From Clostridia bacterium (GTDB taxonomy: Bacteria; Bacillota; Clostridia; Christensenellales; UBA1242), in NCBI GenBank assembly GCA_045650505.1, contig JAZRRE010000010.1:15258-79257 (forward strand): a stretch of DNA of 64,000 bases. Reading direction: 5' to 3'. Position numbers and translations under genes: made by a program. The notes under the pieces are model-generated. The model made no database searches. It worked only from the letters and a program-made list of their open reading frames with translations, and was not told the origin of the DNA. Shown in pieces: positions 1-6,573 of the stretch. The number at the start of each line of letters is the position of its first letter. Position 1 is the first letter of the stretch.

Positions 1-751
1 ATGTTTTTTTGATATTTATAATTTTTTCTAAAAGAGCAAAAATAATTAACAAACTATATTGTATTCCATATCCACTATTTTTAATGTCAATATTTTTAGA
101 ATCTTGTAAAGAAAATATTTTAGATAAAAAATCTATATTGCTTAAATTAAAACTAGGTTTTATTTGATTGTCTTTAACAATATTAATTTTGTTTAAAGTA
201 TCTTCGATATATGTTAAAACTTCATTAATATTATCTTTTTTAACAAAATCGCATTCTTCTGAACCTTGCTGGTTTATATAATTTTTTATAATATAATTAA
301 GAAATAGTCCTGCACCCTTTGTTTTGTCAAATGTCAATTCATTTTTAGGATTTCTAATTGAATCGTAGTATATTACATTTGATTGCTTTAATATTTTTGA
401 ATTGATTTCAGTTTGTGATTCTTTATGTTTTGAATTCAAATATAAATCATCTATAGATTGTGAGATTATTAAATTGATTGAATTTCCAGTTTCTGGGTCT
501 ATTAAATCTCCAAACATACCAATCTCATCATCTGATAATGAGAGAGATAATTCAACAGTAATAGGTTTTTCGCAATCATAAAAATCCTGTTCACTAAATT
601 TATAATTGTTCAATATACCATTGATTGCGTTTAAAATATTGGATTTACCAATATTATTTTCACCTACTATATAGTTTATGTCATCATTAAATGAAATGGT
701 AAGTCCTGTCAAATTTCTATAATTATCAAAATACGCACTTTTTATCTTCAT
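1..751 (-). CDS. OLD-family / ABC-type AAA ATPase, N-terminal part only (C-terminus beyond the window start)
   Basis: Absent from the ORF track because it has no in-window stop. The reverse strand from ATG 751-749 (SD GGAGA 5 nt upstream) reads MKIKSAYFDNYRNLTGLTISFNDDINYIVGENNIGKSNILNAINGIL... and stays open to position 1. The F-x-N-Y-R-x-L lead-in, the GENNIGKS Walker A and a later NSGYGIQYSLLI signature-like segment are typical of COG3593/AAA_15 ATPases (P2 Old, Gabija GajA, PARIS AriA, Septu PtuA). Confidence 0.75.
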   Translation of the reverse strand, partial: MKIKSAYFDNYRNLTGLTISFNDDINYIVGENNIGKSNILNAINGILNNYKFSEQDFYDCEKPITVELSLSLSDDEIGMFGDLIDPETGNSINLIISQSIDDLYLNSKHKESQTEINSKILKQSNVIYYDSIRNPKNELTFDKTKGAGLFLNYIIKNYINQQGSEECDFVKKDNINEVLTYIEDTLNKINIVKDNQIKPSFNLSNIDFLSKIFSLQDSKNIDIKNSGYGIQYSLLIIFALLEKIINIKKT

Positions 752-827
752 ATTATTCTCCTATAAATGAATTATATCATATTTTTTATTAATTTTGTAG
801 ATTTATAGAGAAATTTACAAAAATATA

Positions 828-836
828 TGTTATAAT
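828..836 (+). promoter_or_regulatory. Extended -10 promoter (TGtTATAAT) for the zinc-ribbon nuclease gene
   Basis: TG at 828-829 and TATAAT at 831-836. The SD AGAGGAA at 843-849 and the ATG at 855 follow. Confidence 0.45.
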
Positions 837-854
837 CTTATTAGAGGAATATAT

Positions 855-2675
855 ATGAAAAAAAGAACCAAATGGACTACAGAACTATTAAAAGAGCATA
901 TTAAAAGTATAGATAAAGATATTGTAATTGTTGGAGAATATACTAACATAGGTTCAAAGATTGAATGTAGTTGTCTAAAATGTAAAAATGTCTGGCATCC
1001 AACTGCTGGAAATTTAATTGGCGGGAAATCTCATTGCCCAAAATGTAGTAAAATAAATAGTGCTTTATTAAGAAAAAAATCACATGAGGATTTTTTGCAA
1101 ACAATTCAATCATTAAATCCTAATGTGGAGATTTTAGGAGAATATTTATCTAATAAAAAACGCATTAAGTGTAAATGTAAAATTTGTGGAAAGATTTGGA
1201 ATCCTATTAGTGGAAGTTTATTGCAAGGATGTGGATGTTCGTCTTGTGCATATAAAGTAAGAGGGAAAAATCGTAGAACAACACAACTTGATTTTGTTGA
1301 TAAACTTTCAAAAAGCAATCCTGGAATTGAGATAATTGGTGAATATTCAGGAGCTTTTGAACCAATTAAATGCAAATGTAAAGTATGTGGTAATATTTGG
1401 AGTCCGAGAGCGCATGATGTTTTATTGGGAAGCGGGTGTCCGGAATGTTCTCATTCGGCAACATCTTTTGTAGAACAATTTATTTTAAAATCATTTAGAA
1501 ACGTTTTAGGAATTGAAGAAGTTTTTAGTAGAGATAAAAAAACAATAGGAAAAGAACTTGATATCTTTATTCCAAGCTACAATATTGCGATAGAGCCAGG
1601 TGCTTGGAGCATGCATAAAAGAGGTGTGAAAAAAGATATCGAAAAACAGAGATTATGCAAAGAAAAAGGTATTAGATTAATAACTATATATTATGGTTGT
1701 AAAGAGAAGTTTGAAGAAAATGAAAATCTAATAATATATACTCACAATTTCGAAAGAGAGACATCATTCCATGAATTAAAAGAACTAATTAGTAAACTTT
1801 TTGATAAAATTGGTATAGAGTGTAATTTTTCGGATGAAGATTGGTTAATGTTAAAAAATGAAGCCTATTTATGTTCTAGAAAAATAACAACCAAAGAGTT
1901 TGTGGGAAGATTAAGTAACATCAACAGCAATATCATTGTTTTGGGAGACTATAAATCTTCAAGCGAAAGAATTGAATGTAAGTGTAAAATATGTGGGCAC
2001 ATTTGGAATCCTATAGCGAACACTTTAATGCAAAGAAGAAGCTGTCCGAAATGTAAAAATCAAGCTACTGGAAATAGATTAAGGTTTTCGCAAGAAAAAT
2101 TTTTAGAAAAACTACATACACAAAATCCTAATATTATACCTTTAGAAAAATATATAGATAGCAAAACAAAGATTAAATTTAAATGTCTTAAATGTCAATA
2201 TGAATGGGAAACTATTCCGGGCATTCTATTTAGTGGGAGTGGATGTCCTAATTGTGCCGGTAGACCAAAAATTACAACAGAAAGTTTCAAAAAAAGAATG
2301 ATTGAGATTAATCCCAATATTGAAATACTGGGAGAATATATAAATACTGGAACAAAAATTAAATATAGGTGTAAAGTTTGTGGATATGAAGGATGTGCAA
2401 CACCTAACTATCTTCAAGATGGAAATAAATGCCTTAATTGTATGGGGCGAAGAAATATTAATACAGAAAGTTTTAAAGAACGTATGTTAAGAATCAATCC
2501 TAATATAGAAATACTAGGAGAATATAAAAATACAAGCACAAAAGTCTTATGTTTTTGTAAGGTCTGTAGTTTCGAATGGATGGGCACCCCTAGAGACTTA
2601 CAAACTGGTCACGGATGTCCGGAATGTGGAAGAAAAAGAAAAGGAAGAAGAAAAATAACTAACACTCAATCTTAA
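855..2675 (+). CDS. Protein with seven treble-clef zinc-ribbon modules (DUF4379-like) and a central Vsr/DUF559-like PD-(D/E)XK endonuclease core
   Basis: There are seven copies of the module NPN-IEILGEY-x6-KI-x-CKC-x-CG-x-W-x10-14-GCP-x-C, three before and four after aa 203-282. The core reads GKELDIFIPSYNIAIEPGAWSMH...DIEKQRLCKEKGIRLITIYY. This fits the D...IE.G..H...D..R...L...G pattern of Vsr/DUF559-type nucleases. Confidence 0.7.
   Translation: MKKRTKWTTELLKEHIKSIDKDIVIVGEYTNIGSKIECSCLKCKNVWHPTAGNLIGGKSHCPKCSKINSALLRKKSHEDFLQTIQSLNPNVEILGEYLSNKKRIKCKCKICGKIWNPISGSLLQGCGCSSCAYKVRGKNRRTTQLDFVDKLSKSNPGIEIIGEYSGAFEPIKCKCKVCGNIWSPRAHDVLLGSGCPECSHSATSFVEQFILKSFRNVLGIEEVFSRDKKTIGKELDIFIPSYNIAIEPGAWSMHKRGVKKDIEKQRLCKEKGIRLITIYYGCKEKFEENENLIIYTHNFERETSFHELKELISKLFDKIGIECNFSDEDWLMLKNEAYLCSRKITTKEFVGRLSNINSNIIVLGDYKSSSERIECKCKICGHIWNPIANTLMQRRSCPKCKNQATGNRLRFSQEKFLEKLHTQNPNIIPLEKYIDSKTKIKFKCLKCQYEWETIPGILFSGSGCPNCAGRPKITTESFKKRMIEINPNIEILGEYINTGTKIKYRCKVCGYEGCATPNYLQDGNKCLNCMGRRNINTESFKERMLRINPNIEILGEYKNTSTKVLCFCKVCSFEWMGTPRDLQTGHGCPECGRKRKGRRKITNTQS
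2277..2648 (+). repeat. In-frame tandem duplication (2 x 186 bp) encoding zinc-ribbon modules 6 and 7
   Basis: The copies start at 2277 and 2463 (acagaaagttt...). By eye the first ~75 nt of each copy are about 80% identical (aatcc[ct]aatat[ta]gaaatact[ga]ggagaatata[ta]aaatac). The 3' parts have diverged. Confidence 0.7.
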
Positions 2676-2706
2676 TGATTGGGCGTTTTTTATTGTCTAA
2701 TTTTAT

Positions 2707-3110
2707 CGTGTGGACAGATGGTGTCACAGCGGTAGTTGTATAATATAAAAAATTAGTGTTTCACCAAATGGTGGTGAAACACTTGTATTATAATAAAATA
2801 AATTTTACTGATACGACAAATGGTGTCGAATCACTTGTTGTATAATGTGTAAAATTATTTTCCGCTGTAAAAGATGTCTTTACAGCGGACATGATAAAAT
2901 ATTAAAAATTAATTGCCGTGGTATCAGATGGTGATACTTCGGTAGTGCTAAAATATTAAAAAAATTTTTAACCGCTTGACCAGAGGGTAGTGAATCGGCT
3001 ATGCAATAATATAGAAAAAATTTCCCGATGGGAACAATGTGGTTACAACGGGAATGTTAGAATATATAAAATATTTCTTGCGTGTCTAAACGGTGAACAC
3101 GCGGATATGT
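2707..3110. repeat. Array of 8 tandem units (period 49-56 bp). Each unit has a unit-specific 10-12 bp inverted repeat around a conserved CA-RATGG-TG centre, plus a conserved AT-rich linker with a -10-like TGnTAnAAT and an A-tract.
   Basis: Hairpins lie at 2707-2732, 2756-2782, 2809-2833, 2861-2889, 2916-2942, 2972-2999, 3024-3052 and 3080-3102. Unit 2 (GTGTTTCACCA-AATGG-TGGTGAAACAC) and unit 4 (CCGCTGTAAA...TTTACAGCGG) are perfect. Units 1 and 3 have one bulge or mismatch, unit 5 has two, and units 6-8 are more degenerate. No ORF of 60 aa or more exists on either strand. Confidence 0.85.
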
Positions 3111-3438
3111 AATAATTAACGAAAGGAGGTGTAAGAGAATGTAAAAATTATTTGGAAAGTCTTGGTTATTATGAAAAGTCCATATAAGTCGATAATATTG
3201 GATTATTTTATAGTAAGCAGGATAAGAGTTGTATGCATTTTGACAAATTTTTAGGTTTAAAATCCCTAAAAATCAGCACTTTTGACGTATGCACTTTTCA
3301 AAAGTCGCTGTTTACAAATTTGCATACACTCCCTTTGTTTCGGCAAGTAGGAAACCTACTTCCATTTTGGCTTAATTAAGCCACTTTTACATTGCTCGAT
3401 GCAAGTAAATTTTATTAGTTTATAGGAGGTAAATTTTT

Positions 3439-3453
3439 ATGATTAAGGAGTAA
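3439..3453 (+). promoter_or_regulatory. Four-codon upstream mini-ORF (MIKE-stop) whose AAGGAG codons form the SD of the downstream gene
   Basis: The strong SD TAGGAGGT lies at 3423-3430, 8 nt before ATG 3439. The ORF is ATG ATT AAG GAG TAA. The AAGGAG at 3445-3450 sits 5 nt before ATG 3456. Confidence 0.35.
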
Positions 3454-3455
3454 CA

Positions 3456-3662
3456 ATGAGTAAAAAATTAAAATCAATTTCTTATGCTAAAAACATACAA
3501 AGCATAAATCTAATCACAAACAAAGAAAGAAAAGGACAATCTAATTTTTATTCGTCAGTAATTGAAAATTGTGGAACAACACTTGCAAATTTACTAATAG
3601 ACTACATTAAAAAAGATGGAGATATAAATAATCTCACACCTGATAATATTTTTAAAAAATGA
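3456..3662 (+). CDS. Hypothetical small protein (68 aa)
   Basis: ORF with SD AAGGAG 5 nt upstream. No recognisable motif. Its stop lies 4 bp from the stop of the convergent 269-aa gene. Confidence 0.45.
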   Translation: MSKKLKSISYAKNIQSINLITNKERKGQSNFYSSVIENCGTTLANLLIDYIKKDGDINNLTPDNIFKK

Positions 3663-3666
3663 TTTT

Positions 3667-4476
3667 TTAATCTTGTTTAAAATAATGTAGGTAAGATAAA
3701 TCTTTTTTATTAACCTTTTTTAAATATTCTTTTTTTACAAATCCAGCATCTTTAGAGTTCTCTTTTATTGAGTAGTATTCAATAAATTTAAAGAATGAGA
3801 GGTTTTCATCTTTTTCAATAAGAGTTTTTACTGAGTTTAGTAAAAAATGGTATGTATCAGGAATCGCTTCGGTAATCCTATTGTCGTTAAAAATTTCGAT
3901 AATCCAGTTATAATCATAAATGATATTTTCAAGCAACTTTTCAATTTCTAAATCAATAATTCCATTAATAGCACTTGCATATAGGCGATTGTTTATGTTG
4001 TTTAAAAAGAATTTAAAGTTTTTTCTTTGCTTTACAAGAAAATGTACATCGTCCATAATTTTGATTTGTTTTTCATAAGAAAATTTTGTAAATTTTTTAA
4101 ACTTTTCTTTATATTGTTCACTTTGATATTCTAGCATTTCAATAGTTTTTAAATTAGATTTATCAAGAAGAAAACTAGAATAATATAAAAATTCTGCAAC
4201 GAATTTTTTTACATCTGAATAAAATAATGCCTTTAGATTTTGCTTTGTGTTATGTGATGAAATTATATGAATAATTTCAACAAGCAAAGAAACAATGCCT
4301 GAAGTTAATAGTCCTGTGCCTACACTTATATAAACACTATTTAAGGAATCGTTGGCTTTGATAATGAAGAAGATTCCAAGCCCCAATATAAAAATATTTA
4401 ATATAATTAAACAATTGTTTAGAGATAAAAAACATTCTAATTTTTTAGCAAACTTATGTTTTTTTGTTTTTTCCAT
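3667..4476 (-). CDS. Membrane protein with two N-terminal TM helices and a ~190-aa helical cytoplasmic domain
   Basis: TM1 is CLIILNIFILGLGIFFII and TM2 is VYISVGTGLLTSGIVSLLVEII. The start ATG at 4476 is separated by 1 nt from the TAG stop of the upstream HTH gene, suggesting translational coupling. Confidence 0.7.
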   Translation of the reverse strand: MEKTKKHKFAKKLECFLSLNNCLIILNIFILGLGIFFIIKANDSLNSVYISVGTGLLTSGIVSLLVEIIHIISSHNTKQNLKALFYSDVKKFVAEFLYYSSFLLDKSNLKTIEMLEYQSEQYKEKFKKFTKFSYEKQIKIMDDVHFLVKQRKNFKFFLNNINNRLYASAINGIIDLEIEKLLENIIYDYNWIIEIFNDNRITEAIPDTYHFLLNSVKTLIEKDENLSFFKFIEYYSIKENSKDAGFVKKEYLKKVNKKDLSYLHYFKQD

Positions 4477-4477
4477 A

Positions 4478-4681
4478 CTAATTTTCCAATCCTATTAAAT
4501 AATCTGATGAGCAACCAAAGAAGTGACAAAGTATAATTATGCTGTCAATATTTGGAACTCTTAAATTCTTTTCCCAACGGTTAATACAAGCTGTGCTTAT
4601 ATTAACTTTTTTAGATAATTCATATTGTGTAAGATTTTGTTCTTCTCTTAACTCTTTTAATCTTTCTGCGAACTTGTTCAT
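4478..4681 (-). CDS. XRE-family helix-turn-helix transcriptional regulator (67 aa)
   Basis: FAERLKELREEQNLTQYELSKKVNISTACINRWEKNLRVPNIDSIIILCHFFGCSSDYLIG is a canonical Cro/CI-type HTH. SD AAGGAG is present. Confidence 0.85.
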   Translation of the reverse strand: MNKFAERLKELREEQNLTQYELSKKVNISTACINRWEKNLRVPNIDSIIILCHFFGCSSDYLIGLEN

Positions 4682-4708
4682 ACTTACTCCTTATTTTGAA
4701 TTAGTATA

Positions 4709-4782
4709 TACCAAATGGTAATAAAATACTTGACTTTTACCAAATGGTAAATATATAATATATATGCATATACCAAATGGTA
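4709..4782. promoter_or_regulatory. Three direct copies of the operator-like 12-mer TACCAAATGGTA between the divergent HTH genes. They overlap a rightward promoter.
   Basis: Exact copies lie at 4709-4720, 4738-4749 and 4771-4782. TTGACT at 4730-4735 and TATAAT at 4754-4759 (18-nt spacer) bracket the middle copy. Confidence 0.75.
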
Positions 4783-4795
4783 AAATGGAGTAATT

Positions 4796-4996
4796 ATGAA
4801 AAATACAATTAAAACTGAAATTATAGAAAAATATATAAATGAAAACAAATTAAGCAAAACGAAATTCTGTAAAATGTGTAAGATTAGTCCTAGCACATTA
4901 AATAAGATTATGACTAATGATGATAACTTTGGAATAATTGCACTTTTTAAGATTGCAAGAGTAATTAAGGTTCATGTATATCAAATGTTTAATTAG
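4796..4996 (+). CDS. Small HTH DNA-binding protein (66 aa), co-oriented with the recombinase
   Basis: KLSKTKFCKMCKISPSTLNKIMTND is HTH-like. SD GGAG is present. The gene ends 11 nt before the recombinase start. Confidence 0.7.
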   Translation: MKNTIKTEIIEKYINENKLSKTKFCKMCKISPSTLNKIMTNDDNFGIIALFKIARVIKVHVYQMFN

Positions 4997-5007
4997 GAGG
5001 TATTATA

Positions 5008-6549
5008 TTGAAAAAAAGAGCTGTTATATATGCGAGATTTAGTTCGCATAGTCAAACTGAACAATCTATTGAAGGTCAACTTCGTGAGTGTTATGAGTTT
5101 GCAAGAAGAAACAAATATATAGTTTTGGAAGAATATATTGATAGAGCAATTTCTGGAACAACAGACAAAAGACCTGATTTCTTGCGAATGATAGAAGATG
5201 GCAAGAGTAAAAACTTTGATTATGTTATTGTTTACCAATTAGATAGATTTGCAAGAAATAGATATGATAGTGCTCACTATAAAAATATTCTCCATAAAAA
5301 TGGTATTAAGGTTTTATCGGCAAAAGAAAATATTTCAGACGAACCAAGCGGTTCCCTTATGGAATCTGTTTTGGAAGGTATGGCAGAATATTATTCCAGA
5401 GAATTAGCACAAAAGGTTAAAAGAGGTATAAGAGAAAGTTTGATTAAGGGAAATTATATAGGTGGTTATATCTTGTATGGGTATAATGTTGAGAATAAAA
5501 AGTATGTGATAAACGAAAAAGAAAGTGCTATTATAAGACAAGTTTTTGAAAACTATGCTAATGGCATTAAGGCACAAGAAATAGTTAATGAATTAAACAA
5601 CAAAGGACTTAAAACAAAATATGGCAGAGATTGGACTTTAAACATAATTGCTAAAATGTTACGAAATCCTAAATATATTGGAAAGTGCATTATAAACGAA
5701 GTTGAGTATGATAATGTTTTTCCACCAATTATTGATGAAAAGATATTTAAACAATGTAATGATATTATGGATTCACACAAACATAGACAAAGAAAAGAAA
5801 TAGATGATGAAGATATTTATATTTTAAGTGGAAAACTTTATTGTGGTGAGTGTGGTCATTTAATGACTGCTGAAACAGGAACAAGTTCAACAGGTGTTGT
5901 TTATAGATATTACAAATGTTTTGGTAAAAAGAAACGAGCGAATAATTGTGGCAAACATAATGTTAAAAAAGATGAGATTGAGAACTTTGTTTTTGAAAAG
6001 ACAAAAGAATATGTCTTGGAACCTAAAACTACTGAAAGTATAGCCACAGTTGTTGTAGATAAGTTTAATAGCGAACTTGCTAATAACTATGTTTTAATCA
6101 AACTACAAGAAGCATTAAAAGAAAAAACAAGAGCAATAAACTCTATGCTTGATGCTATTGAAAAAGGAATTTACACAAGGTCAACCCAAGAAAGATTGCT
6201 TAAACTTGAACAAGAACAAGCAGAACTTGAAGATAAAATTGCTTATGAAGAAAGTCATCAACTTAAACCACTTGAAAAGTCTAAAATTGTTGAGTTTTTA
6301 AAAATATATGCAAAACAGAAATTTGAAAGCAAAAGAGATAGAAATGATTTCTTTAATAACTTCATTTCAAGAGTTAACTTATTTGATGACCGAATTACAA
6401 TTGTTTATAATACAAGTCTAAATCCTGCAACTGAAATATACAATAGACCCGAAAGCGACCCCGATGACGACACAAATGATAGTGGCACAACAATTTATAA
6501 GCAAGATGTGGAATTGACTGAAAATGACATAAAAAAAATTGCCGTTTGA
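5008..6549 (+). CDS. Large serine recombinase / integrase
   Basis: The N-terminal resolvase domain reads AVIYARFSSHSQ...VIVYQLDRFARN, with the catalytic Ser in YARFSS. A recombinase domain follows. The zinc ribbon is CGECGH...YRYYKC, followed by a coiled-coil tail. It uses a TTG start with SD AGGAGG 7 nt upstream. Confidence 0.9.
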   Translation: MKKRAVIYARFSSHSQTEQSIEGQLRECYEFARRNKYIVLEEYIDRAISGTTDKRPDFLRMIEDGKSKNFDYVIVYQLDRFARNRYDSAHYKNILHKNGIKVLSAKENISDEPSGSLMESVLEGMAEYYSRELAQKVKRGIRESLIKGNYIGGYILYGYNVENKKYVINEKESAIIRQVFENYANGIKAQEIVNELNNKGLKTKYGRDWTLNIIAKMLRNPKYIGKCIINEVEYDNVFPPIIDEKIFKQCNDIMDSHKHRQRKEIDDEDIYILSGKLYCGECGHLMTAETGTSSTGVVYRYYKCFGKKKRANNCGKHNVKKDEIENFVFEKTKEYVLEPKTTESIATVVVDKFNSELANNYVLIKLQEALKEKTRAINSMLDAIEKGIYTRSTQERLLKLEQEQAELEDKIAYEESHQLKPLEKSKIVEFLKIYAKQKFESKRDRNDFFNNFISRVNLFDDRITIVYNTSLNPATEIYNRPESDPDDDTNDSGTTIYKQDVELTENDIKKIAV

Positions 6550-6573
6550 CTTTTCGTTCAAACGACAATTGTC

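What the first reader, a model, noticed from the sequence alone, without database searches (positions are those of the whole stretch)
2707..3110. Eight-unit tandem array of covarying hairpins with a conserved loop and a phased -10-like A-tract linker
About 30 nt after the stop of the zinc-ribbon nuclease gene, a 400-bp ORF-free stretch resolves into 8 units with a 49-56 bp period.

Each unit has a 10-12 bp inverted repeat. The arm sequence is different in every unit but remains complementary:
- U2 is GTGTTTCACCA/TGGTGAAACAC and U4 is CCGCTGTAAA/TTTACAGCGG, both perfect.
- U1 and U3 have one bulge or mismatch, and U5 has two.
- U6-U8 decay progressively.

The centre is conserved (CA-RATGG-TG). 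The stem bases carry a GC clamp (CCG...CGG) in an AT-rich background.

The linker is conserved as TG-n-TA(T/A)AAT followed by A5-7TT. That is an extended -10-like element plus an A-tract, recurring roughly every 5 helical turns.

Arms that differ in sequence while keeping their pairing indicate selection on folding (RNA or single-stranded/cruciform DNA). A dsDNA protein site would instead conserve the arm sequence. The phased A-tracts also predict intrinsic curvature.

I do not recognise this as any described element. It is not CRISPR, the identical-repeat ToxI type, or integron attC. The closest analogies are tandem structured motifs on mobile elements such as STAXI or ssDNA hairpin promoters.
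Basis: seen in the sequence. Interest (0 to 1): 0.85.

Follow-up and report, generated by a model that had tools for sequence, protein, structure and literature searches.

The report
Hairpin-plus-promoter repeat array in a mobile element
The eight-unit hairpin array is real and belongs to the inner left end of a small mobile element inserted next to a tRNA gene, where it most likely acts as a stack of promoter-and-RNA-hairpin modules, a repeat type not found in the databases and papers searched.

Summary
There are eight units at 2706-3116 with 50-56 bp spacing. Each has an inverted repeat whose arms differ between units but stay complementary, a conserved tip, and a -10-like hexamer at a fixed distance.

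A covariance model built from the units found homologous arrays of 2-9 units in 17 other loci and nowhere else in about 0.7 Mb searched. The family consensus is A5-n-T3, then YCGC-N5-CAAATGGTG-N5'-GCGA, then a 6-nt spacer (cAaTtG), then TAnAAT.

The array is not linked to the zinc-ribbon gene. It is the leftmost part of a ~3.9 kb integrative element (~2692-6574) inserted at tRNA-Ser. It always points into an optional 155-193 aa gene (orfA), a conserved non-coding RNA-like region and the recombinase module.

Best reading (~0.4): reiterated sigma-A promoter modules (UP-like tract plus -10) whose upstream palindrome is transcribed from the preceding unit into an RNA hairpin. The conserved tip may be read by OrfA or a host factor.

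Rivals are a multi-hairpin RNA protein-binding array and a dsDNA or cruciform binding array. There is no Rfam, CRISPR, ToxI, attC, REP or TIGR membership. Function is untested.

The parts
2665..2691 (.). Bidirectional terminator-like hairpin plus T-run that forms the left flank (target side) of the element
   Evidence: Terminator scan. The same hairpin precedes the element next to three different upstream genes: the window, L001 (twice) and L043.
2692..2698 (.). ATTGTCT, inferred left crossover region (attL core). The same heptamer occurs at the right end.
   Evidence: Read from sequence. Homology between the window and L001 breaks at 2694. L043 has the identical junction TTGTCTAATTTTATCGTGTGGAC. 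The role as crossover is inferred.
2706..2744 (+). Unit 1: hairpin 2706-2732 (TCGTGTGGACA/TGTCACAGCGG, tip CAGATGGTG) and hexamer TATAAT at 2739-2744. It is a fusion of two ancestral units.
   Evidence: The fusion is shown by comparison with L043 units V1 and V2.
2756..2794 (+). Unit 2: perfect 11-12 bp hairpin 2756-2782 (tip CAAATGGTG) and hexamer TATAAT at 2789-2794
   Evidence: Fold z = -5.2; model hit at 58.4 bits.
2808..2846 (+). Unit 3: hairpin 2808-2834 and hexamer TATAAT at 2841-2846
2862..2900 (+). Unit 4: perfect hairpin 2862-2888 (tip AAGATGTCT) and TGnTAAAAT at 2892-2900
   Evidence: Fold z = -6.7. The hairpin is identical to L043 unit V3.
2916..2954 (+). Unit 5: hairpin 2916-2942 with a conserved T.T and G.T pair, and TGCTAAAAT at 2946-2954
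   Evidence: Fold z = -4.5. The ortholog is L043 V4.
2972..3010 (+). Unit 6: degenerate hairpin 2972-2998 and TGCAATAAT at 3002-3010
   Evidence: Fold z = +0.2; model hit at 52 bits.
3025..3063 (+). Unit 7: weakened hairpin 3025-3052 and TGTTAGAAT at 3055-3063. It carries two uncompensated changes relative to L043 V5.
3080..3116 (+). Unit 8: short hairpin 3080-3102 and TGTAATAAT at 3108-3116
   Evidence: Fold z = -2.5; model hit at 40 bits.
3125..3148 (+). Conserved end of the array: Shine-Dalgarno-like GGAGGTG (3125-3131), ATG-TAA start-stop (3139-3144) and a last -10-like TGTAAAAAT (3140-3148)
   Evidence: The GGAGGTGT-N3-7-ATGTAAAA pattern ends the array in 11 other loci. Variants occur in L011 and L035.
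3217..3370 (+). Conserved non-coding RNA-like region that the array points into. It starts with GCAGGATAAG and ends with a covarying terminator hairpin.
   Evidence: Alignments A2 and A6. The start motif matches 22 loci; 20 of the 21 distinct copies extracted align with the region and L010's does not. No Rfam hit.
3456..3662 (+). Gene for a 68-aa orphan protein that follows the non-coding region in serine-recombinase elements
   Evidence: No Pfam or PHROG match.
4709..4783 (.). Three TACCAAATGGTAA operators around the TTGACT-18-TATAAT promoter, between the divergent HTH genes (the element's immunity switch)
5008..6549 (+). Large serine recombinase gene of the element
   Evidence: Pfam Resolvase, Recombinase and Zn_ribbon_recom domains.
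6552..6579 (.). Conserved right end of the element, TTCGTTCAAACGACAATTGTCTGGCGG, abutting or overlapping the 3' end of tRNA-Ser (6574-6661, minus strand)

Best explanation
The array is the inward-facing control region at the left end of a ~3.9 kb integrative element inserted at the 3' end of a tRNA gene.

Each unit is a promoter-plus-leader module with four parts in a fixed register:
- an A5-n-T3 tract in the position of a distal UP element (about -56 to -47);
- a 27-bp palindrome at -45 to -19, whose conserved tip CAAATGGTG sits where a -35 box would be;
- a conserved 6-nt spacer;
- a TAnAAT -10 hexamer, often preceded by TG.

Host sigma-A RNA polymerase is proposed to start a few bases after each hexamer and read rightwards. 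Every transcript would then begin just upstream of the next unit's palindrome, which folds into an 11-bp RNA hairpin with an AAUGG loop. All transcripts run through the terminal Shine-Dalgarno/AUG-UAA site into orfA (when present) and the conserved non-coding region. That region's terminator precedes the 68-aa gene, or xis-int in tyrosine-integrase elements.

Reiteration would give high, context-independent transcription into this module. The hairpins and the SD site would act as 5' stabilisers. The conserved tip would be a recognition site for a regulator, with OrfA (putative ribbon-helix-helix N-terminus) or a host factor as candidates. Making the arms different in each unit keeps the repeats from recombining while preserving folding.

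Shown here: the anatomy, its conservation, the covariation, the genomic position and the orientation.

Inferred, not shown: promoter activity, transcription, RNA folding in vivo, stabilisation, and OrfA binding.
For: Fixed register
- In 66 distinct units from 12 loci the hexamer always starts 6 nt after the palindrome. Its base frequencies are T79 A92 a61 A82 A86 T92. The strongest positions match A-11 and T-7 of -10 elements and the weakest is the third.
- TG precedes the hexamer in U4-U8 of the window and in many homologues.
- A5 then T3 lie directly upstream of the palindrome.
- Length variation between units (50-77 bp) falls after the hexamer, where a transcription start would lie.

Selective constraint
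- Between close orthologous units, divergence is 3.0% in stems, 3.3% in the loop, 3.5% in the spacer and 4.8% in the hexamer. It is 11.9% in the mid linker.

Orientation and position
- Every array found has the same orientation as the downstream genes, and all that are not cut by a contig start lie at the left edge of the element module.
- The arrays end in a conserved SD plus ATG-TAA.

Pairing
- About 90% of stem cells are paired across arrays, with 3-4 pair types per position.
- G.U outnumbers A.C on the + strand: 45 against 21 cells (p = 0.004), or 29 against 17 distinct events (p = 0.10).
- L043 unit V1 keeps its helix only through three G.T pairs.

Other
- No arm type is repeated within an array, while the same types recur across elements.
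- The exact tip CAAATGGTG is kept in 25 of 42 units in arrays with orfA, against 2 of 16 in arrays without it.
Against: - No transcript data were available, so promoter activity is purely a sequence inference.
- No -35 box is present, although the element's own switch promoter uses TTGACT-18-TATAAT.
- In the spacer, T at -15 (95%) is far more conserved than G at -14 (39%). That is not the usual extended -10 pattern and suggests the palindromic CAATTG has its own role.
- 5' stabilisation does not explain a conserved loop.
- RNA polymerases bound 53-65 bp apart would occlude one another.
- The strand test is only moderate, and whole-array folding is equally good on both strands.
- Arrays are dispensable. 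Related elements have none (L001, L028, L036-39).
- The ribbon-helix-helix assignment for OrfA rests on a sequence pattern only. Pfam, PDB sequence search and fold search found nothing.
Confidence: 0.4

Rival explanations
1. The array works as one long structured RNA. A leader transcribed from one or a few promoters carries 2-9 hairpins that display the AAUGG loop.

These would be reiterated binding sites for a protein, which could act in one of three ways:
- as a sponge, like CsrB or RsmZ;
- as nut- or put-like sites that make RNA polymerase read through the terminator of the downstream non-coding region;
- as loading sites for OrfA.

In this view the UAnAAU motif after each hairpin is part of the RNA recognition site, not a promoter.
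For: - Stems covary, while the conserved loop and closing pairs are kept.
- G.U outnumbers A.C on the + strand.
- Copy number varies and arm types are non-redundant.
- The array lies directly upstream of a terminator-containing conserved RNA and of excision or integration genes.
- The loop consensus is better kept when orfA is present.
- The hairpin, spacer and hexamer evolve as one slow block.
Against: - The hexamer's base-by-base profile is that of a -10 element, which an RNA site has no reason to copy.
- An A5-T3 tract in UP-element register upstream of each hairpin is also unexplained by an RNA role.
- No known RNA-binding domain is encoded nearby.
- The loop does not contain known motifs such as GGA, and there is no Rfam hit.
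Confidence: 0.25
2. The array is a double-stranded or cruciform DNA binding array. A dimeric protein would bind the conserved outer YCGC/GCGA bases, the tip and the CAATTG of each palindrome.

Candidates for the protein are OrfA (as an autoregulating ribbon-helix-helix repressor), the recombinase, or a host protein.

The resulting higher-order complex would do one of three things:
- control the promoters;
- assist recombination at the adjacent attachment site;
- serve as a transfer, replication or segregation site for the excised circle.

Short GC-clamped palindromes in AT-rich DNA would extrude as cruciforms under supercoiling.
For: - The array starts 8-14 bp from the inferred left crossover, so unit 1 lies inside the expected recombinase half-site (half-site size is from general knowledge of large serine integrases).
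- The conserved right end follows the unit grammar: A8TTG-CCGTTTGAC...TCAAACGA-CAATTG-TCT. It shares AACGACAATTGT with array units.
- The arm 'types' are conserved in sequence, not only in pairing.
- Arrays sit directly upstream of orfA, as with autoregulated ribbon-helix-helix or iteron systems.
- Both strands fold equally well.
Against: - A dimer reading half-sites does not explain why the five central arm positions vary between units yet stay complementary.
- The same arrays occur in elements with tyrosine integrases.
- Arrays occur in elements whose repressors use a different operator (ATTCC-N6-GGAAT) while the tip is unchanged.
- A 94%-identical recombinase works from an element with no array (L001).
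- Unit lengths of 52-77 bp give no common helical phasing.
- No replication, relaxase or partition gene was recognised in the ~3.9 kb element, and its 269-aa and 68-aa genes have no family match.
Confidence: 0.2
3. The array has no function of its own. It would be a slowly decaying tandem duplication of one promoter-hairpin unit, or scars of repeated insertions at the same tRNA hot spot. It would persist because it is neutral.
For: - Arrays are dispensable and vary from 0 to 9 units.
- In the window, units 6-8 are degraded and unit 1 is a fusion.
- tRNA sites do accumulate tandem elements: L001 carries a 400-bp mini-element 3.3 kb from a full one.
Against: - Neutral decay would not keep about 90% pairing with compensatory changes.
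- It would not keep 27 of 27 identical hairpins in elements whose recombinases are each only about 70% identical to the window's.
- It would not give a 3-4 fold lower substitution density in hairpin-to-hexamer than in the linker.
- It would not avoid repeated arm types within arrays.
Confidence: 0.05

Closest known systems
Tandem sigma-70/sigma-A promoters with UP element and extended -10, and Gram-positive 5' mRNA stabilisers (5' stem-loops of the ermC/aprE type, the STAB-SD of cryIIIA). From general knowledge, not tested here.
   Same: - TAnAAT hexamer with the A-11/T-7 conservation profile, frequent TG, and an A/T tract at -56 to -47.
- A hairpin close to the predicted 5' end.
- A strong SD that is not followed by a real ORF.
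   Different: - 2-9 complete modules are packed head to tail at 52-77 bp.
- There is no -35 box.
- A conserved palindrome with covarying arms occupies -45 to -19.
- No described promoter cluster was found with this build (paper searches).
CsrB/RsmZ-type sponge RNAs
   Same: Many hairpins with different covarying stems, one conserved apical motif, AU-rich linkers, and variable copy number.
   Different: - There is no GGA motif and no CsrA link.
- Each unit carries a promoter-like element in fixed register.
- The array lies on a mobile element as a leader, not as a free-standing sRNA gene.
- No Rfam match.
TIGR stem-loop arrays of TIGR-Tas systems (PMC12045711)
   Same: Tandem units on mobile elements and gut metagenome contigs, whose stems are 'variable but consistently palindromic'. 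These arrays are transcribed and processed.
   Different: - TIGR stems enclose large loops holding two 8-12 nt spacers flanked by box C/D motifs, and sit beside a Nop-domain Tas protein.
- Here the loop is a conserved 5-nt tip, the variable parts pair with each other, and no Nop-domain protein is encoded.
Type III toxin-antitoxin antitoxin repeats (ToxI/ToxN)
   Same: A tandem non-coding repeat array directly upstream of a ~160-aa protein gene, on mobile DNA.
   Different: - ToxI repeats are near-identical 34-36 nt pseudoknot units followed by a terminator (general knowledge).
- Here units are 50-77 nt, diverged, and simple hairpins.
- OrfA is predicted to be all-helical with no match to any family.
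- Arrays exist without orfA (window, L011, L043).
Iteron or operator arrays bound by ribbon-helix-helix proteins (omega heptads, parC/ParR, CopG operator)
   Same: Reiterated sites in the promoter region upstream of the gene for a small putative ribbon-helix-helix protein. The site overlaps the -35 position.
   Different: - Those repeats conserve sequence and need no intra-strand pairing.
- Here five arm positions covary.
- The ribbon-helix-helix assignment for OrfA is unproven.
Structure-conserved single-strand DNA sites (integron attC, REP/BIME, HUH nick-site hairpins)
   Same: Hairpins whose stems vary while folding and a few bases are kept. A conserved short sequence follows the hairpin.
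   Different: - No integron integrase or HUH enzyme is present in the element.
- The units are not dispersed: there are no other copies in 64 kb or in the flanks of the other loci scanned.
- They are not separated by cassettes.

Membership tests
CRISPR array | Near-identical direct repeats separated by unique spacers, usually with cas genes nearby | tested here: not met
   Units share only about 62% column identity, and the variable parts are self-complementary arms rather than spacers. No cas domains were found in neighbouring genes.
Type III TA antitoxin (ToxI-like) | Near-identical 34-36 nt tandem repeats, then a terminator, then a ToxN-family endoribonuclease gene | tested here: not met
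   - Units are 50-77 nt and diverged.
- The downstream OrfA is absent from the window.
- OrfA matches no family.
Integron attC | Sites separated by gene cassettes, beside an integron integrase | tested here: not met
   - Units are contiguous with no ORFs between them.
- The recombinase is a large serine recombinase.
REP/BIME or other dispersed extragenic repeats | Many copies scattered through the genome | tested here: not met
   - The model finds no other copy in the 64-kb window (best other hit E = 0.09).
- It finds none outside the arrays in the other loci scanned.
- The whole host genome could not be scanned.
Any Rfam 15 family | Covariance-model match at or near the gathering score | tested here: not met
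   The best hits are chance-level snoRNA or sRNA matches far below gathering scores.
TIGR stem-loop array | Stem enclosing two 8-12 nt spacers flanked by box C/D motifs, with an adjacent Nop-domain Tas protein | tested here: not met
   - The loop is 5 nt and conserved.
- No Nop domain is present in neighbouring proteins.
- The family definition was taken from PMC12045711.
Sigma-70-type extended -10 promoter | TAnAAT with dominant A-11 and T-7, optional TG at -15/-14, correct orientation to a downstream gene | tested here: met
   - Hexamer profile T79 A92 a61 A82 A86 T92 at a fixed position.
- TGnTAnAAT is present in U4-U8.
- All arrays point at downstream genes.
- This is met by sequence only.
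Sigma-70-type extended -10 promoter | Transcription initiates 5-9 nt downstream of the hexamer | not testable with these tools
   No transcriptome or 5'-end data were available.
UP element | A/T-rich tract (A-run then T-run) at about -57 to -47 | tested here: met
   A at 77-91% over five positions, then T at 82-97% over three, directly upstream of the palindrome. This corresponds to -56 to -47 if the hexamer is at -12 to -7. It is a positional match only.
CsrB/RsmZ-like sponge RNA | Repeated GGA or ANGGA motifs in hairpin loops | tested here: not met
   The loop consensus is AAUGG within CAAAUGGUG.
Operator array of the element's own Xre-type repressor | The site sequence co-varies with the repressor type | tested here: not met
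   - Window-type elements use TACCAAATGGTAA x3.
- L016, L019 and L011 use ATTCC-N6-GGAAT x3, yet L016 and L019 keep CAAATGGTG tips; L011's two units have other tips.
Phased A-tract curved DNA | A-tracts repeated in phase with the helix (multiples of about 10.5 bp) across the family | tested here: not met
   Unit lengths cluster at 52-54, 56-60 and 64-67 bp, plus 72-77 bp.

The most novel reading that the evidence does not exclude
The array may be a new class of mobile-element nucleic-acid device. In this reading it is a set of about a dozen anciently diverged, individually conserved hairpin 'alleles' with a common tip and flanking motif, transcribed from their own internal promoters.

Together with the adjacent conserved non-coding RNA (and OrfA where present), the array would control excision or integration. 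Alternatively it would titrate a host or rival-element factor. Either way this would be a reiterated, structure-specified recognition array distinct from CRISPR, TIGR, ToxI and Csr-type RNAs.
Probability: 0.3. Interest if true: 0.85.

Novelty: new variant of a known kind. Interest (0 to 1): 0.66.

Why it matters
- If the units are promoter-plus-hairpin modules, this is a natural design for strong, recombination-proof, context-independent expression at the edge of a mobile element. That would be useful for understanding how very small integrative elements in gut Firmicutes control excision, and as a parts source for Gram-positive synthetic biology.
- If the hairpins are instead reiterated recognition sites on RNA or extruded DNA, the array and the neighbouring conserved RNA define an undescribed regulatory system. 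It is shared by elements with serine and with tyrosine recombinases.
- Either way, the array is a clean marker for a family of ~4 kb tRNA-targeting elements that break metagenome assemblies and sit beside defence-type genes.

Tried and rejected
**Database and literature searches with no match**
- Rfam scans of the window and of L014 gave nothing above chance.
- blastn of 2600-3700 against plasmids and phages gave no match.
- An exact-pattern scan of IMG/VR viral contigs for the unit consensus gave no match. Protein-guided scans of viral contigs gave nothing relevant.
- Three paper searches found no description of such arrays. TIGR-Tas was the nearest and was read and excluded.

**Hypotheses tested and rejected**
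- Link to the 606-aa zinc-ribbon gene. Rejected because L001 and the other homologue loci scanned lack arrays.
- Operator array for the element's repressor. Rejected by lack of co-variation.
- Helical phasing and curvature as a conserved property. Rejected.
- Intrinsic terminators. On the + strand no U-run follows the stems. On the - strand the U-run starts 6-7 nt after the stem.
- Coding potential. Unit lengths are not multiples of three, and only short mechanical ORFs are present.
- tRNA-end or anti-Shine-Dalgarno pairing of the loop. Considered from the sequence and judged unconvincing.

**Tests that were uninformative**
- OrfA function: Pfam, PHROGs, PDB sequence search, AlphaFold model and Foldseek gave no match. 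The model is mostly one long helix.
- The 68-aa protein is an orphan family and its model is low-confidence (pLDDT 67), so no fold search was run.
- Strand assignment by folding energy: both strands give the same z-score.
- Exact-sequence look-ups of window proteins in public assemblies found nothing on record.
Full report
**1. The observation**

Reading 2500-3400 shows eight head-to-tail units.
- Anchoring on the -10-like motif gives positions 2736, 2786, 2839, 2892, 2946, 3002, 3055 and 3108, spaced 50-56 bp.
- Tandem Repeats Finder misses the array because the copies are too different.
- An almost ungapped alignment of the units (A1) has a 10-pair helix that is paired in 83% of cells, against 59.5% after shuffling (0 of 500 shuffles reach it). 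Nine of ten pairs change on both sides, and slid registers give only 31-51%.
- Folded singly, U2, U4, U5, U3 and U8 beat dinucleotide shuffles (z = -5.2, -6.7, -4.5, -3.0, -2.5). U1, U7 and U6 do not (z = -1.2, -1.1, +0.2).
- The whole array folds at z = -7.7.

The description is therefore accurate, including the decay towards the 3' end.

**2. It is a conserved family feature, but not of the zinc-ribbon gene**

- The 606-aa protein has DUF4379/CapR zinc-ribbon repeats and matches phage HNH/homing-endonuclease PHROGs.
- Its closest relative (97% aa, L001) sits in the same arrangement but has no array. Homology between the window and L001 stops at 2694 and resumes at 3480. Other homologue loci also lack arrays.
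- A covariance model of the eight units (R1) found clustered hits, all on the same strand as the downstream genes, in:
  - L014, L015, L016 and L019;
  - L026, L027, L029 and L030;
  - L035 and L040-42;
  - L043, L044 and L047-49.
- Two more units were read by eye in L011.
- There was no convincing hit elsewhere in the 64-kb window or in the flanks.
- Nothing matched in Rfam, plasmids or phages, or IMG/VR.

**3. Family anatomy**

The relatives have cleaner units than the window. Over 66 distinct units the register is fixed:
- A at 77-91% over five positions, then T at 82-97% over three;
- the palindrome Y-C-G-c-N5-C-A-A-A-T-G-G-T-G-N5'-G-C-G-a (27 nt, an 11-bp stem with an AATGG loop);
- a 6-nt spacer, cAaTtG, with T at 95% at its fourth position;
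- a hexamer with frequencies T79 A92 a61 A82 A86 T92.

Other properties:
- Unit length varies from 50 to 77 bp, in clusters at 52-54, 56-60 and 64-67 bp, with outliers at 72-77. All of this variation lies after the hexamer.
- Stems are about 90% paired in ten arrays, with three or four pair types at the central positions.
- The arms fall into a limited set of types that recur in different elements, some 27 of 27 identical, but never twice in one array.
- Between close orthologous units the substitution density is 3.0% in stems, 3.3% in the loop, 3.5% in the spacer and 4.8% in the hexamer. It is 7.9% in the A/T tract and 11.9% in the mid linker. Hairpin-to-hexamer is thus one constrained block.
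- Arrays end with GGAGGTGT-N3-7-ATGTAAAA, a strong Shine-Dalgarno sequence plus a start-stop. This holds in the window (3125-3144) and 11 other loci, with variants in L011 and L035.

**4. Where the array sits**

Right end of the element:
- The right end is conserved in recombinase-bearing relatives as GTTCAAACGACWATTGnnTGGCGG. In most of them it abuts the 3' end of a tRNA gene.
- In the window this is tRNA-Ser(tga) at 6574-6661 on the minus strand.

Left end of the element:
- ATTGTCT occurs at both 2692-2698 and 6568-6574.
- The left flank is a bidirectional terminator. The same hairpin is found next to three different upstream genes, in the window, L001 and L043.
- L001 also holds a 400-bp miniature made only of left end, non-coding region and right end.

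I infer a ~3.9 kb element (about 2692-6574) whose first feature is the array.

The conserved gene order across loci is:
1. the array;
2. an optional 155-193 aa orphan gene (orfA);
3. a conserved non-coding region that starts with GCAGGATAAG and ends in a covarying terminator;
4. either a 64-68 aa orphan gene followed by the immunity and serine-recombinase module, or xis-int of a tyrosine integrase.

This order is supported.

All four combinations of array and orfA occur:
- both in most loci;
- array only in the window, L011 and L043;
- orfA only in L028 and L036-39;
- neither in L001.

The array is therefore an optional add-on to this module. It is not tied to one recombinase type.

**5. What the window copy looks like in that light**

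L043 carries the closest array, with six units.
- Window U1 is the 5' arm of L043 V1 joined through the shared tip to the 3' arm of V2. This explains its mismatches.
- U4 is identical to V3.
- U7 has two uncompensated changes relative to V5.
- Arrays without orfA keep their pairing (87% against 90%) but rarely keep the exact tip: 2 of 16 units against 25 of 42, Fisher p = 0.0025, not corrected for phylogeny.

**6. Mechanism**

The hexamer profile, the frequent TG, the A-then-T tract in the position of a distal UP subsite, the variable segment after the hexamer and the uniform orientation together read as sigma-A promoters. These promoters would lack a -35 box. The resemblance to UP elements, to Gram-positive extended -10 promoters and to 5' stabilisers rests on general knowledge of those features.

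On that reading, each transcript would start just upstream of the next palindrome, giving a 5'-proximal RNA hairpin. The last would start at the Shine-Dalgarno/start-stop site.

The strand test leans to the + strand. G.U against A.C is 45 to 21 cells (p = 0.004), or 29 to 17 distinct events (p = 0.10). Folding energy does not discriminate between strands.

I therefore commit, at about 0.4, to reiterated promoter-leader modules feeding the orfA / non-coding RNA / excision module. The conserved tip would be a regulator site.

OrfA has a ribbon-helix-helix-like N-terminal sequence pattern followed by a long helix, but it matches no family or fold. Its role is a guess.

Rivals:
- A multi-hairpin RNA binding array (0.25).
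- A duplex or cruciform binding array (0.2). This is helped by the closeness to the attachment site and by the right end sharing AACGACAATTGT with units. It is weakened by arrays in tyrosine-integrase elements and by L001 working without one.
- Neutral decay (0.05), which the constraint pattern argues against.

**7. Comparison with known systems**

Tested and not met:
- CRISPR, ToxI, attC, REP, TIGR stem-loop arrays (PMC12045711) and Csr-type sponges;
- operator arrays of the element's own repressor. Its operators are TACCAAATGGTAA x3 in window-type elements and ATTCC-N6-GGAAT x3 in others, without any change in the tip.

Tested and met, by sequence only:
- the promoter and UP-element features.

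I class the array as a new variant of known kinds (tandem promoters, leader hairpins, reiterated recognition arrays). There is a real chance that it is a new kind of device.

Noticed in passing
window 3217-3370 (+); also L001, L011, L014-L019, L026-L030, L035-L042: A conserved ~150-nt non-coding region starts with the invariant GCAGGATAAG and ends in a terminator hairpin. Six of the hairpin's 10 pairs show compensatory changes. The start motif matches 22 loci and 20 of the 21 distinct copies align with the region (L010's does not); where its context was read it lies just upstream of the 64-68 aa gene or of xis-int. It has no Rfam match, so it is a candidate new leader or regulatory RNA of these elements.
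   Followed up: partly
window 4709-4783: Three TACCAAATGGTAA palindromic operators bracket a TTGACT-18-TATAAT promoter between the divergent HTH genes. This is a lambda-like immunity switch. Related elements with a different repressor carry ATTCC-N6-GGAAT x3 instead.
   Followed up: yes
window 2692-2698 and 6568-6579; tRNA-Ser 6574-6661 (-): A ~3.9 kb integrative element is delimited by ATTGTCT at both ends. It is inserted at the 3' end of tRNA-Ser(tga). Its right end, GTTCAAACGACWATTG..TGGCGG, is conserved in 17 loci.
   Followed up: partly
L001 2030-2436: A 400-bp miniature derivative of the element consists of left end, non-coding region and right end only. It lies 3.3 kb from a full copy, which suggests non-autonomous copies mobilised in trans and tandem accretion at the site.
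   Followed up: partly
window 748-2694: The zinc-ribbon/HNH-like 606-aa gene and its flanks are 96% identical to L001 3832-5777, but the sequence upstream differs. The gene may itself lie on a separate inserted segment at the same hot spot.
   Followed up: no
window 3139-3144: A minimal ATG-TAA start-stop lies 7 nt after a GGAGGTG Shine-Dalgarno sequence. It is conserved at the end of arrays in 11 other loci, but L035 has a 9-codon ORF in its place.
   Followed up: partly
window 7036-10941: A 1301-aa DUF4011 / superfamily-1 helicase / MTES_1575 nuclease protein is encoded just beyond the tRNA. Its domains (superfamily-1 helicase plus restriction-endonuclease-like) suggest a possible defence gene next to the integration hot spot; no defence-system library was searched.
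   Followed up: no
L009, L010, L017, L018 and many ~1 kb contigs of orfA and 68-aa homologues: Metagenome contigs often break inside the recombinase gene or beside the array. This suggests the elements are multi-copy or variable within populations.
   Followed up: no
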